64,000 bases of DNA from Eledone cirrhosa. Lineage: Eukaryota. Positions 12,528 to 55,533 of this stretch are shown here, piece by piece. The stretch is from positions 10,602,001 to 10,666,000 of the forward strand of contig OZ024746.1 in the NCBI GenBank assembly GCA_964016885.1. The letters run 5' to 3'. The notes below the pieces were generated by a model. It was not told the origin of the DNA. It saw only the letters and a list, made by a program, of their open reading frames with translations, and did no database searches. The translations under genes and the position numbers were made by a program. Numbering within the stretch: position 1 is the stretch's first letter; the number at the start of each line of letters is the position of its first letter.

Positions 12528-12720
12528 AGGAACCAGTAAGACCCCGACGGCTGAGCTCAAGCCGTTTCGTCGGCTAATTCTCTAATGAATTAGCCGTCGA
12601 AACGGCTTGAGCTCAGCCGTCGGGGTCTTACTGGTTCCTATTACCCACTCTACTACCCTAAGTATTGAGTACTTTGGTGCGTTATGGTCCACCTGGTTCC
12701 TTACCACATTTCCTTCGTTA
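12528..12720 (+). mobile_element. Fold-back half-hammerhead element family A, copy 1
   Basis: About 50-bp inverted arms; GAAACGGC-ttgagctca-GCCGTC^GGGG; 80-bp tail ending ccttcgtta; (TA)n on both sides. Confidence 0.85.
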
Positions 12721-12780
12721 TATATATATATATATATATATATATATATATATATATATATATATATATATATATATATA

Positions 12781-13061
12781 CAATATATTAATAAATGGAA
12801 ACTATATTTATAAAACCATATTTATTTTATTATACAGATTTGTTTTATAAATAAATATTGACAGACACATCCGGAAAAAAGACAACCTTAACGGTTGGAG
12901 CTTCCTTGATATATGTATAATAAAATAAATATGGTTTTATAAATATAGTTGCCATTTATTCATATATTGAGTATTTAAACCACTAAATTGTTGAGTGCTT
13001 TATATCAGTTATAACAATTTTTAAGCTTGTTGAATCCCAACAAATTAAATATAACCTCTGC
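12781..13061 (+). mobile_element. AT-rich fold-back element in (TA)n
   Basis: About 55-bp inverted arms (12781-12836 vs 12914-12969) plus a tail with ttGAGTGC; related fragment at 18885-19010. Confidence 0.7.
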
Positions 13062-13074
13062 ATATATATATATA

Positions 13075-13445
13075 TAATAAATATAATAAATAAATAAAAA
13101 TGGCGTAGACATTATAGTACAATACAATACAATGGGAGGAAACATAATAGTACCACTGATGATGCTGCAAATGTGCAACGAAAGAACTTTGATAGAGTAT
13201 ATATATATATATATATATATATATATATATATATATATATATATATATATATATATATATATATATATATATTTATATCTGTATTTTTAACAGTTGGTCA
13301 GTCAATGATAAACATTGATTGCCAAATAAATTAACTATGGAGATATAAAAGATACAGAAGCGAAAACCAACCAAACGGTGAGTGTGTTCTGTTATTATTT
13401 CTGGCAATATTATTACAACATTATGACCCTCCCCAAGTATAACAA
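13075..13445 (+). mobile_element. HHR element family F with internal (TA)n expansion
   Basis: CTGATGA-T-gctgca-aatg-tgcaac-GAAA at 13156-13183; colinear with the reverse complement of 18003-18305. Confidence 0.75.
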
Positions 13446-13686
13446 TATATATATATATATATATATATATATATATATATATATATATATATATATATAT
13501 ATATATATATATATATATATATATATATATATACATATATATATATATATATATATATATATATATATATATATATATATATATATATATATATATATAT
13601 ATACATATATATATATATATATATATATATATATATATATATATATATACACATATCTATATATTCATTATTATTTAGACTAAAAA

Positions 13687-13740
13687 GTGAGTCTTGTTAC
13701 TCTGGAGTTTCGCATGTTTATCACAGGCTCATCAACTCAC
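13687..13740 (-). ncRNA. Hammerhead-like motif with C3>U change
   Basis: Minus strand: gtgag-TTGATGA-gc..gc-GAAAC-TC-ca-GA-GTA-..ctcac. Confidence 0.55.
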
Positions 13741-13752
13741 GTTTTAGCCTTA

Positions 13753-13945
13753 TTAATAATTGTTTCTACTTTAGGCACAAGGCCAGCAATTACCCAGTAC
13801 ATTACTGGTACTTTATTTTATCGACCCCGTAAGGATGAAAGGCAAAGTTAACCTCAGCGGGATTTGAACTCAGAATGTAAAGGGACGTAACTATGCTAGA
13901 AAGCATGGCGTCCAACCCTCCACCGATACTGCCAATTCACCGCCC
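13753..13945 (-). mobile_element. Full-length SINE S1 with target-site duplication
   Basis: A-box tggcagtatcgg, B-box gagttcaaatcc; flanking direct repeat tttagcctta. Confidence 0.9.
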
Positions 13946-14748
13946 TTTAGCCTTAATGATGAATATTAAAACTCTACTTCGGTATTGAGTACTCCGTTCT
14001 CTCAACCGTCAACCACACACACACATACACACACACACACACACACACACATATATATATATATATATAAGTAAACACAGAGATATAAACAGAAGCGAAC
14101 ACTAAATATATCTCAGTCGTAAACGAATTGTTAGATATTACTAAATATAAGAAGGAGAAATCGTAGTTAAATAGTTTTAAAAAGATACAAGGAAAAATCA
14201 ATACCACGATGGACTTTATATTGTTATATATTGAATATAAGTTATAGATGAACAAAGAGACTGAAATGCAAATACATAGATCTAATAAGATAAAGAGACT
14301 CACATAGATACACCCCTCCACTGAGAGAGGGGGGCGGGGGTAGAGAGAGAGAGAGGGGGTGGGAAGGGATTATGAGGGTTAAATATGAAGAAAGGCAAAA
14401 TACATAGAGACAGACGTATAAATCAATTCTATAGATAGGTAGACAAAGAGATATATGGCTTTCTGCCTGTCCCACTGTCTATCTTTAAGTAGTATATATA
14501 TATATATATATATATATATATGCGTGTATATATATATATATATATATATATATATATATATATATATATATATATATATATATATATATATATATATATA
14601 TATATATATATATACATATATATATATATATGTATATATATATATATATATATATATATATATATATATATATATATATATATATATATATATATATATA
14701 TATATATATATATATATATATATATATATATATATATATATATATATA

Positions 14749-14902
14749 CAGAATTAGCCGTATGGACAGAATTAGCCGTCGAAACGGCTTGAGCTCAGCC
14801 GTCGGGGTCTTACTGGTTCCTATTACCCACTCTACTACCCCAAGTATTGAGTACTTTGGTGCGTTATGGTCCACCTGGTTCCTTACCACATTTCCTTCGT
14901 TA
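14749..14902 (+). mobile_element. Family A copy 2, no inverted arm
   Basis: Nearly identical to the right arm and tail of 12528-12720; short direct duplication cagaattagccgt at the 5' end. Confidence 0.85.
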
Positions 14903-52779: not shown

Positions 52780-53390
52780 TAGTGGAGGATATATTATAAG
52801 AGAGGGGTGGAGAGAGGGGTAGAGTGAAGGGGTGGAGTGAGGGGGGAGATTGAGAGAGGGGGGAGGAGGGAGAGGGAGAATAAGAATAAGATGATGATGA
52901 TGATGATGATGTTGATGAGGAAGAAGAAGAGATAGAGTGATAGAAATAGAGGTAGAGAGAAAACGAGAGAGAGAGAGCGAGAGAGAGAGAGAGAACGGGG
53001 GAAATAGATGGAGAGAAGAAGAAGAAGGAGAAGAAGAAGACGACGAAGAAGAAGAAGAAGAAGAAGAAGAAGAAGAAGAAGAAGAAGAAGAAGAGATAGA
53101 GAGATAGAAATAGCGACAGAGAGAAAAAAGAGAGAGAGAGAAACAGAGGGCGAGAGAGAGAGAGAGAGAGAGAGAGAGAGAGAGAGAGAGAGAGAGAGAG
53201 AGAGAGAGAGAGAGAGCGGGGGAAATAGAAGAGGAGAAGAAGAAGACGAAGAAGAAGAAGAAAAAGAAGAAGATGATGATGATGATGAAGAAGAGATAGA
53301 GAGATAGAAATAGAGATAGAAAGAAAACGAGAGAGGGGGAGAGAGAGAGAGAGCTGGGGGGGGGGGGGGGGTAGAGAAGGAGAAAAGAGT
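52780..53390. repeat. Purine-rich GA/GAA/GAT low-complexity tract
   Basis: Direct reading. Confidence 0.9.
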
Positions 53391-54114
53391 GAACTGACGA
53401 GTGTAAATAGGAAGGAAACGGAAATATTGAGAAAATATTGTTTATGAAATTACTAGATTGAGATACACAATAAAATAATGGATGGCATAGCGGAAGACAT
53501 GGTGTGTGTGTGTGTGTGTGTGTGTTTTTTGGGGGGGGGGGTTTATAAGAGATCGATACTTTAGATTGAAACACACACAGACTCAAATATATATATATAT
53601 ATATATATATATATATATATATATATATATTTGAGTCCAGAATACGTGTCATGTATATATATATATGTGCGTATGTGTGCATATATCTGCATTGAAAGTG
53701 AAATTAGGTAGACGTAAACTATTTCGATGCCCGTCGGATCGACTATACCTGTAATTCAATGAGAGCCTTATCGTACACTTTGTCACGCTGAAATACCCTG
53801 AGATTTACGTTAAAAGTACTCGTGTATGTGGAATACTCAGCCATTTGTACGTTAATTTCATGAGCAGACAGTTCATCAAATAACTGGAACACTCACCGTG
53901 TCAACCCACGGAGATCCATTACTATGTCTGTGTGTGTTTCAATCTAAAGTATCGATCTCTTATAAACCCCCACCCCCACCCTATGTCTTCTGCTATATAT
54001 ATGACGCGTATTCTGGACTTAAATATATGTATATATGCACACACTTAAATAATACGCATTTACACACACACACACACACACACACACACACACACACACA
54101 CACACATATATATA

Positions 54115-54260
54115 TGAGTCTTAACGTTTCGGATACTAGTCCTTCACCAGAAAATAGAATTAGAAATAGAAGATAAATAAAAAGTAAAGAGTGATAAGAT
54201 GAAGGAACGGTGATAAACGACGAGAGAAATGGGTAAAAAAACACACAAACACATGCGTAA
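54115..54260 (-). mobile_element. Family D2 HHR element, mutated
   Basis: Minus CTGGTGA-A-GGAC-tagt-ATCC-GAAACGTT at 54150-54123. Confidence 0.6.
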
Positions 54261-54302
54261 TCATATATATATATATATATATATATATATATATATATAT
54301 AT

Positions 54303-54620
54303 ATAAGGAAAAAAGATGAAATCGAAAATGCAACTGGAGTCTTTTAAAAAAAAATATATATATATTTATTTGGTTCTTTTACCGGTTTCGCAGTTCTTTT
54401 GCTTTTCAAAAGTAGAGTTGATATGAAGGATCTGTGGTTTTTCTCACATCTCAACTCTACTTTTGAAAAGCAGAAGAACTGCGAAACCGGTAAAGGAACC
54501 AAATAAATATATATATATTTTTTTAAATAAGACTTCAGTTGCATTTTTGATTTCATCTTTTTTCCTTATATATATATACTTTTTCATTTTGTAAAAAAAC
54601 CTCACTTTCTAATATATATA
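54303..54620 (+). mobile_element. Fold-back half-hammerhead element with about 120-bp arms
   Basis: 54303-54425 mirrors 54445-54570; right arm has gc-GAAAC-CG-GTA (palindromic stem III). Confidence 0.75.
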
Positions 54621-54639
54621 TATATATATATATATATAT

Positions 54640-54770
54640 TAATAAGGTAATGAATTCTTTTACAATGGAATTAGCTCGAAGGAGGAAAATACCCCTGAGC
54701 CGTGTATAAACTAATATATATGTGATGAAACACAGATACCTGTGTTTCATCACATATATATTAGTTTATA
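54640..54770 (-). mobile_element. Small fold-back element in (TA)n
   Basis: taaactaatatatatgtgatgaaacacag-atac-ctgtgtttcatcacatatatattagttta plus a one-sided tail. Confidence 0.65.
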
Positions 54771-54966
54771 TATATATATATATATATATATATATATATA
54801 TATATATATATATATATATATATATATATATTAAAATAACAGATTAAAGTTTAAGCAAAGAATCGCTGCTTTCAACCTTAGCGGGATATATATTTATCCT
54901 TATCGAGCCCTCTTTGATTTTAGTCTTCACATTTATAATTATTACTATATATATATATATTTTTTT

Positions 54967-55243
54967 TTAGTTATGTAATAAACAACATAAGATAATTATT
55001 TCATTTACCAGTGGTGTTCTTGAAGACAGATGATGTGTCTGTCTTCAGTCGTCAGAATGAATAAAAAACATGATGTTTTTATTCATTCTGACGACTGAAG
55101 ACAGACACAACATCTGTCTTCAAGAAACCACTGGTAAATGAAATAATTATCTTATGTTGTTTATTACATAACTAATAAGCTCTGTAGCCTACATAGAGCA
55201 CTCTTTTTTCCTGTACCTTTCTGACGGAAATACTTCATTCACG
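54967..55243 (+). mobile_element. Fold-back element with complete hammerhead (55082-55142)
   Basis: About 100-bp arms; ttcatt-CTGACGA-c-tgaagacaga-cacaaca-tctgtcttca-a-GAAAC-ca-c-tg-GTA^aatgaa; tail with GAGCACTC. Confidence 0.8.
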
Positions 55244-55338
55244 CACACACACACACACACACACACACACACACACACACACACACACACACATATATAT
55301 ATATATATATATATATATATATATATATATATATATAT

Positions 55339-55533
55339 AGGAAAATGTTTAACCCCGACGGCAGAGCTCAAGCCGTTTCGACGGCTATTTCTGTACCCAG
55401 AAATAGCCGTCGAAACGGCTTGAGCTCTACCGTCGGGGTTAAACATTTTCCTACTACCCACTCTACTACCCTAAGTATTGAGTACTCTGGTGCGTTATGG
55501 TCCATCTGGTTCCTTACCACACCTCCTTCGTTA
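55339..55533 (+). mobile_element. Family A copy 6, fold-back
   Basis: Arms aggaaaatgtttaacccc / ggggttaaacattttcct; same tail. Confidence 0.85.

What the first reader, a model, noticed from the sequence alone, without database searches (positions are those of the whole stretch)
12528..55533. Family A: each copy builds its own inverted arm by fold-back at hammerhead stem II
Seen: six copies (12528, 14749, 16315, 19458, 38165, 55339). In the four palindromic copies, copy-specific variants appear in both arms (ccagtaag/cttactgg, aggttcagg/cctgaacct, aaagtatg/catacttt, aatgttta/taaacatt). The left arm stops at about the same TA microhomology (TATAGGAA). The right arm holds only the 3' half of an HHR (gccgtc-GAAACGGC-TTGAGCTCA-GCCGTC^GGGG), and the CTGANGA half is replaced by the mirror arm. 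Inference: cDNA stalls after copying the stem II hairpin, snaps back and self-primes second-strand synthesis. The ribozyme structure would then fix insertion architecture and disarm the ribozyme. 54303-54570 shows the same pattern in another family.
Basis: partly seen in the sequence, partly recalled or inferred. Interest (0 to 1): 0.75.

Follow-up and report, generated by a model that had tools for sequence, protein, structure and literature searches.

The report
Penelope stubs stop at transcription start
These mirror-image repeats are stubs of a very abundant Penelope-type jumping gene, likely made when both cut ends of the target DNA copy the element's RNA up to what is likely its capped start and the two copies are joined head to head; they are not made by fold-back at the ribozyme hairpin.

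Summary
The six copies are real. They are 3'-end stubs of a Hydra-type Penelope-like retroelement (3,058-bp unit found), with at least 15,631 such palindromes genome-wide. The parent has a complete hammerhead fold, but with a UUGAAAA core, not CUGANGA. Fold-back at stem II fails: its predicted product occurs 0 times; the mirror arm is longer than the tailed arm as often as shorter (49 vs 49 of 123); copy 38165 and three cross-family joints cannot arise by fold-back; the 'copy-specific' variants are subfamily markers. Both arms stop near one site (TTA+1GTCC) inside loop II, often with an extra G. In two other families of the window the arms keep the whole ribozyme and stop about 30 nt after a TATA box. 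Best reading: two target-primed cDNAs start at two internal sites, run off the capped RNA start and are end-joined. The layout is a known Penelope feature; the mechanism is inferred, no RNA data were available. This scan reached similar readings before, in this genome and in others.

The parts
12528..12718 (+). Family A copy 1: tail-less arm (minus, 12528-12581), 5-nt junction insert, tailed arm from 12587, predicted cleavage site after 12621, TTCC end 12638, 80-nt tail 12639-12718
14749..14900 (+). Family A copy 2: tailed arm only, from 14766, preceded by a short templated duplicate; tail 14821-14900; same subfamily as copy 1
16315..16495 (+). Family A copy 3: older palindrome, arms overlap by a short microhomology near 16357-16361; tail 16413-16495
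19458..19648 (+). Family A copy 4: tail-less arm 19458-19509, G at 19510, tailed arm from the inferred start A+1 at 19511; predicted cleavage after 19551 (+41); TTCC end 19568 (+58); tail to 19648 (+138)
38165..38294 (.). Family A copy 5: full tail-less arm on the minus strand (38165-38225, reaching A+1) joined by ACT microhomology to a bare tail fragment on the plus strand (38223-38294); not explicable by fold-back without a later deletion
55339..55531 (+). Family A copy 6: tail-less arm 55339-55396, tailed arm from 55397, TTCC end 55451, tail 55452-55531
54306..54566 (.). Family C palindrome: another Penelope-type end; both arms keep a whole TTGAAAA-core hammerhead motif; the minus arm reaches the family's 5' limit (AGATG), 30 nt after TATAAAA in long copies
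7271..7420 (.). Family B palindrome (tail follows to the right): keeps the CTGATGA core at 7345; family 5' limit about 6 nt before the core, 28-30 nt after TATAAATA-like boxes in long copies
54964..55178 (.). Family D palindrome: both arms keep a whole CTGAAGA-core hammerhead motif; only this copy was found in 1.5 Mb

Best explanation
Family A copies are short head-to-head insertions of a Hydra-type Penelope-like retroelement, likely made when both nicked strands of a (TA)n target prime reverse transcription at two internal sites of the element's RNA, both cDNAs run off what is likely the capped RNA 5' end, and the two ends are likely joined by end-joining repair. Shown: the parent element, the two fixed 3' ends (+58 and +138), the common 5' limit near TTA+1GTCC, independent trimming of the two arms, 0-5-nt microhomologies or short inserts at the joint. 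Inferred: that this limit is the transcription start; that priming is double; that usually one RNA (or one source locus) serves both arms. The stubs lack the 5' half of the hammerhead because the inferred start lies inside loop II, not because of a fold-back.
For: Parent: tandem unit of 3,058 bp with RT and C-terminal GIY-YIG motifs; the tail runs on into the next unit's ORF. One tail only in 123 of 127 pairs; tail-less arm longer 49, tailed arm longer 49, equal 25; by 3 nt or more 29 vs 32. 163 of 246 arms end 9-16 nt above GCCGTC, 3 of 246 reach 18 or more; the stop rate peaks at +2/+1. 15 of 123 centres are perfect palindromes with no loop. Unselected 464 kb: 4 of 21 tails are joined to a mirror arm without their own sense arm. 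Long pairs break independently; the tail-less arm is the longer in L236, L240, L244. Three family A arms are joined head-to-head to family F arms. Start-site signs: family C short arms never pass -1 (16 measured, 8 at -1 to +2), TATAAAA at -30; family B limit 28-30 nt after TATAAATA-like boxes in 6 long arms; extra G before A+1 in 12 of 19 arms with an unexplained insert (p=0.007), both arms G 256, C 49, A 8 genome-wide, while long copies have T there (G in 1 of 58). ORF pieces are joined directly onto the same site in L167, L177 and in contig joints at 1799-1803 of L069, where A+1 is 1800. PMC11167929 shows both strands nicked and extended from two internal sites that bound the tail, in another PLE in vitro.
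Against: No RNA evidence for the start site. In family A the -30 box is only TATTTATT; a TATAWAWR scan did not single it out (better offsets +58, +4, -17, -15). 39 of the first 50 G/G centres are CAG/CTG or CCAG/CTGG, which could be templated repair inserts rather than cap copies. C, not G, is the commonest extra base when arms end at +2 (11 of 18), unexplained. Ends spread from about -4 to +8, so trimming or several starts must be assumed. Arms share a subfamily in 71 of 75 typed pairs, as fold-back also predicts. Later deletions in palindromes could create some asymmetric copies. Most pairs were selected by a pattern with a centre of at most 30 nt, and the three A-F joints came from a biased search. 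Long copies read through the site, so another template or a jump is needed for them.
Confidence: 0.65

Rival explanations
1. One reading: one cDNA stalls after copying stem II, snaps back on it and self-primes the mirror arm.
For: Stem II is real in the parent (CGGCTATTT/AAATAGCCG); centres lie just above its 3' strand; arms match by subfamily.
Against: Predicted centre with loop II kept: 0 matches in 3.0 Gb (pattern covers the TATT[TC]ATT subfamilies only). Stubs never contain the 5' strand of stem II. Mirror arm longer in 49 of 123. Families B, C, D keep the whole core.
Confidence: 0.03
2. One cDNA runs to the RNA 5' end, folds back there on a micro-hairpin and copies itself; later breakage and repair of the palindrome centre trims either arm.
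For: Same-subfamily arms in 71 of 75 typed pairs; 42 of 101 centres fit a fold-back without insert; central deletions in palindromes are known (recalled, no call). Self-priming was proposed for PLE palindromes in PMC3846280.
Against: Needs secondary change in over half the copies; does not give A-F joints, two-subfamily arms such as L127, a tail-less arm more than 3 kb longer than the tailed arm (L236), or the exact 49/49 symmetry.
Confidence: 0.13
3. Double priming is right, but the 5' limit is a block to reverse transcriptase (bound protein or RNA structure, on a read-through or circular RNA), not a transcription start.
For: Long copies pass the site; family A's TATA box is weak; a small hairpin can form inside loop II; circular templates are proposed in PMC4209133.
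Against: The limit sits at a different place in the ribozyme in each of three families but at the same distance from a TATA-like box, on a pyrimidine-purine step; extra G; template jumps at the same site.
Confidence: 0.15
4. Family A is a MITE or fold-back DNA transposon that copies its terminal inverted repeats.
For: Short, palindromic, TA-flanked, very abundant.
Against: 72 different centres in 101 copies, one-sided 80-nt tail, single-arm copies, and an RT-encoding parent.
Confidence: 0.01

Closest known systems
Hydra clade of C-terminal EN+ Penelope-like elements (Craig et al. 2021, PMC8557442; passages and supplement search seen)
   Same: Unit of about 3 kb, RWR (RWK-like), DKT, CxCx5C linker, CxxC and CxH in the endonuclease, (TA)n targets, hammerhead in the repeat.
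   Different: Hammerhead has a U3-A8 core and a 32-nt loop II; tail is 80 nt, not 30-40; stubs vastly outnumber long copies. Five short DNA motifs of families A-C were not found in the one supplementary file held as text, so identity with a published family is open. No tree was built.
Inverted 5'-truncated pLTR plus one-sided tail of EN+ PLEs (PMC8557442 Fig. 2 legend; Adineta Pen2a, PMC3846280; passages seen)
   Same: Exactly this layout: head-to-head inverted copy, tail on one end only.
   Different: PMC3846280 explains the palindromes by self-priming, possibly on an antisense template; copy statistics here favour two separately primed cDNAs ending at a shared 5' limit.
Poseidon element of Anolis, in vitro (Frangieh et al. 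2024, PMC11167929; parts 1-2 of 4 read)
   Same: Both strands nicked and extended at AT-rich DNA; two internal RT start sites bound the tail; uncut RNA is the template.
   Different: The parts read do not treat inverted stubs or run-off at the transcription start; different clade.
[quoted passage not shown]
   Same: U3-A8 instead of C3-G8; palindromic loop 3; located in the pLTR.
   Different: Here stem III is 5 bp and stem II 9 bp with a long loop; cleavage untested.
L1 twin priming and cap-derived extra G (passages in PMC11702581)
   Same: Second target end primes a second cDNA; joint made by end-joining; extra G at full-length 5' ends.
   Different: In L1 the two cDNAs are adjacent, giving an inversion; here they overlap fully, giving an inverted duplication, and both start at fixed sites.

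Membership tests
EN+ Penelope-like element | Single ORF with RT followed by GIY-YIG endonuclease | tested here: met
   YRDDG, then NVIY..YIG in L236, L242, L243; ORF broken by stops and frameshifts in the copies read; Pfam gave no hit on four pieces; 43% identity to unnamed P0001.
EN+ Penelope-like element | Partial tandem forming pLTRs, inverted 5'-truncated copy, one-sided tail | tested here: met
   L236 and L242 tandems; 123 of 127 pairs with one tail.
Hydra clade | RWK, DKT, CxCx5C linker, CxxC and CxH motifs | tested here: met
   RWR, DKT, CNCPDRSMC, CNLC, CKH, against the description.
Hydra clade | Length under about 3 kb and (TA)n targets | tested here: met
   3,058-bp unit, at the upper edge; TA flanks.
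Hydra clade | Phylogenetic placement of the RT | not tested
   No reference Hydra proteins were on hand; no tree built.
Hydra clade | Canonical hammerhead in the pLTR | tested here: inconclusive
   Type I three-stem fold found but core is the U3-A8 variant; 4 of 58 long arms read CTGAGAA (C3-A8 mismatch).
Neptune clade | CX2-5CxxC linker before GIY-YIG | tested here: not met
   No such motif in the ORFs of L236 or L242; my first guess, dropped.
Naiad clade | N-terminal endonuclease | tested here: not met
   Endonuclease is C-terminal.
Type I hammerhead ribozyme | Stems I-III around core boxes and NUH | tested here: met
   Minimum-energy fold of L066 and L237 gives the three stems around UUGAAAA, GAAA, GUC; L141 and L069 fold otherwise or partly. 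No hammerhead among the 150 Rfam matches listed for the window.
Type I hammerhead ribozyme | Self-cleavage | not testable with these tools
   Needs an in vitro assay.
MITE / TIR DNA transposon | Fixed internal sequence between terminal inverted repeats | tested here: not met
   72 distinct centres in 101 copies; tail outside one arm.
RNA polymerase II core promoter at the 5' limit | TATA near -30, initiator at +1, capped RNA ends | tested here: inconclusive
   Clear TATA at -30 in families B and C, weak in A; initiator-like YYA+1NWYY (consensus recalled) in A; RNA ends not testable.

The most novel reading that the evidence does not exclude
Penelope-like elements replicate through a retrovirus-like 'strong-stop' step: priming happens near the capped 5' end of the transcript, the hammerhead cuts only the 3' repeat (the 5' repeat starts inside loop II and cannot), leaving a 41-nt terminal redundancy onto which the short cDNA jumps to make long copies; the thousands of palindromic stubs are jumps that failed. 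This would give the PLE hammerhead a function and explain tail, tandem and inverted repeats in one scheme.
Probability: 0.22. Interest if true: 0.75.

Novelty: new member of a known kind. Interest (0 to 1): 0.4.

Why it matters
How Penelope-like elements form inverted repeats and tails is named as open in PMC8557442, and the published guess is self-priming (PMC3846280). This family supplies thousands of natural events that discriminate between models and gives exact, testable coordinates: start at +1, predicted cut at +41, RT starts at +58 and +138. If right, stub ends map PLE transcription starts from DNA alone, and many short TA-flanked palindromes in such genomes are retro-insertions, not MITEs or microRNA hairpins. 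The structure itself is not new, and this scan has reported the same reading on other families and genomes.

Tried and rejected
Search for a CTGANGA parent: 51 matches; in the 30 loci read the motif was a chance junction, a neighbouring family or a loop variant, none a core box of a long copy. A pattern for the upstream loop found nothing because my guess of its sequence was wrong. Rfam: only microRNA-type and other sub-threshold matches among the 150 of 252 listed. Repeat finder was swamped by microsatellites. Pfam and PDB gave nothing useful for the ORF pieces. The protein atlas returned no result. No RNA holder listed. A mismatch-tolerant measure of arm length was confounded by a small hairpin in the parent and replaced by exact runs; all three gave the same symmetry. 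Neptune assignment rejected. Target-site duplications cannot be read inside (TA)n and were not measured. Papers: searches listed no paper whose title or abstract start ties PLE palindrome centres to the transcription start; subscription papers and bioRxiv supplements were not visible and may do so.
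Full report
Observation. The window is G000:C6:10602001-10666000 of a 3.0-Gb animal genome. An exact pattern for the palindrome centre matches 15,631 sites, the reversed control none; 13,892 match with the tail on one side.

The parent. Following the best tail-arm hits upstream, L047 led into a broken ORF. L236 holds a complete tandem unit of 3,058 bp; there and in L069 the tail runs on into the next unit's ORF. 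The ORF has RWR, DKT, YRDDG, CxCx5C, NVIY..YIG, CxxC and CxH in that order, matching the Hydra clade as described in PMC8557442 (passages). An inverted 5'-truncated copy and a one-sided tail are listed there as typical of PLEs. So family A is the 3' repeat of a Hydra-type PLE.

The ribozyme. Long copies read ACCCC-TTGAAAA-GTTCGGCTATTT-[32 nt]-AAATAGCCGTC-GAAA-CGGC-[9 nt]-GCCG-TC-GGGGT; L066 and L237 fold into the three stems unaided, L141 does not. The core is TTGAAAA in 43 of 58 long arms and CTGANGA in none; U3-A8 cores are known from Schistosoma PLEs (PMC4209133). 423 copies match this full motif exactly (a different and narrower pattern, so the ratio is only indicative). The subfamily-diagnostic letters lie in loop 1 of this fold. 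Cleavage is untested.

Test of fold-back at stem II. Snap-back on stem II would leave loop II between the arms. That sequence has 0 matches (subfamilies with TATT[TC]ATT covered). In 127 head-to-head pairs from 321 arms (an unselected 464-kb stretch, 90 loci chosen by a centre pattern, 30 chosen by likeness to the tail arm), 123 have one tail; the tail-less arm reaches further into the parent in 49, the tailed arm in 49, equal in 25. In the unselected stretch, 21 tails divide into 11 palindromes, 4 bare tails joined to a mirror arm (38165 is one), 4 sense-only and 2 others. Long inverted pairs break independently, and the tail-less arm is the longer in L236, L240 and L244. Three family A arms are joined head-to-head to family F arms with no TA between, among 179 pairs examined, all three from a biased search. 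Arms agree in subfamily in 71 of 75 typed pairs (0.20 expected at random; 48 untyped); L127 differs at three diagnostic sites. Fifteen of 123 centres are loop-free perfect palindromes. Joints show 0-5 nt overlap in 79 of 127 pairs and inserts in 48. This is what two separately primed cDNAs joined by repair would leave; both-strand extension from two internal sites is shown in vitro for another PLE (PMC11167929).

Why both arms stop at one place. The stop rate peaks at the G and A of AGTCCAG (0.36, 0.49), and 3 of 246 arms pass -6. Family C in the window (54306-54566) keeps a whole TTGAAAA core in both arms; its 16 measured short arms never pass -1 of AGATG, which lies 30 nt after TATAAAA in 8 long copies and 41 nt before the core (9 arms not measurable). 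Family B keeps CTGATGA; 11 of 15 pairs have core starts 4-11 nt apart, and six long arms have a TATAAATA-like box 34-36 nt before the core, 28-30 nt before the limit. The limit therefore moves relative to the ribozyme but not relative to a TATA-like box. In family A the box at -30/-31 is TATTTATT, and a consensus scan did not pick it out, so this leg is weak for A alone. An extra G precedes A+1 in 12 of 19 arms with an unexplained insert (p=0.007); both arms carry it at 256 sites, against 49 for C (mostly a TTCAGTCC variant) and 8 for A. A cap-derived G is described for full-length L1-type insertions (PMC11702581, passages). Against: 39 of the first 50 G/G centres could be templated inserts, and arms ending at +2 prefer an extra C (11 of 18). 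A frequent AAATTT centre suggests a second start at -3/-4. ORF pieces joined onto the same site (L167, L177) and contig joints at 1799-1803 of L069 in three runs of one sample (possibly the assembly's own sample) fit template jumps at an RNA end. No RNA run was listed.

Mechanism. Shown: element class, two fixed 3' ends at TA microhomologies (+58, +138), a shared 5' limit, independent trimming. Inferred: transcription starts inside loop II; the enzyme nicks both strands of (TA)n; each end primes at one of the two internal sites on uncut RNA; both cDNAs run off the capped end and are end-joined (0.65). Rivals: fold-back at the RNA end with later trimming (0.13), an RT block instead of a start site (0.15), stem II snap-back (0.03), MITE (0.01). 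A bolder extension, that long copies arise by a jump to a ribozyme-cut 3' repeat, is untested (0.22).

Novelty. The layout is known, self-priming was proposed in PMC3846280 (passages), and internal promoters in pLTRs are known (PMC2377424, passages). I formed the double-priming and start-site reading before looking at earlier scan notes; those notes (unchecked) report the same for other families in this genome and in other genomes, and none by sequence for this family. The preprint 10.64898/2026.07.22.740005 (passages) links retrozymes to pLTRs but the passages seen do not treat inverted stubs. What this case adds is the direct genome-wide refutation of stem II fold-back, three families with the same promoter spacing, and a start site that splits the ribozyme. 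Verdict: new member of a known kind, interest 0.40.

Noticed in passing
L001, L019, L028 (G000:C6:10764373): Family F arm joined head-to-head to a family A arm; the F arm stops at the same point (..TTCACTGAGGAAC) in all three, and the one-tail rule appears broken in two of them.
   Followed up: partly
L009:1280-1570: A family B arm switches into a family A-like 3' end at the shared GAAAC of the two hammerheads: a likely template switch between families.
   Followed up: no
window 37883-38149: Family F insertion right beside copy 38165: short mirror arm plus long arm with a CTGAAGA hammerhead motif at 38044-38080.
   Followed up: partly
window 12320-12505: Another PLE-type 3' end with a minimal hammerhead (12375-12398) and AATAAA; 6 copies seen, none head-to-head.
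   Followed up: partly
L177:5017-5674 and L167:4081-5037: Tandem units that each begin at the inferred start and end inside the ORF (257 and 959 nt), suggesting occasional priming further into the ORF and jumps at the RNA end.
   Followed up: partly
window tails at 12660-12672 and 7420-7435: The tails of families A and B share a TAT(T/C)GAGTAC word, possibly a common enzyme-binding signal.
   Followed up: no
long copies: 4 of 58 long arms read CTGAGAA (C3-A8 mismatch), all in the GAGAA lineage; that subfamily's ribozyme may be weakened.
   Followed up: no
window 59225-59597: Three alternating copies of another repeat forming a 214-bp palindrome, 93% arm identity, not TA-flanked.
   Followed up: no
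window 53530-53978: 53-bp inverted repeats 450 bp apart with short TTGAGTCCAGAAT-like words nearby; relation to family A unclear.
   Followed up: no
window 32694-34400 (approximate end): Long degenerate trinucleotide-type tandem array.
   Followed up: no
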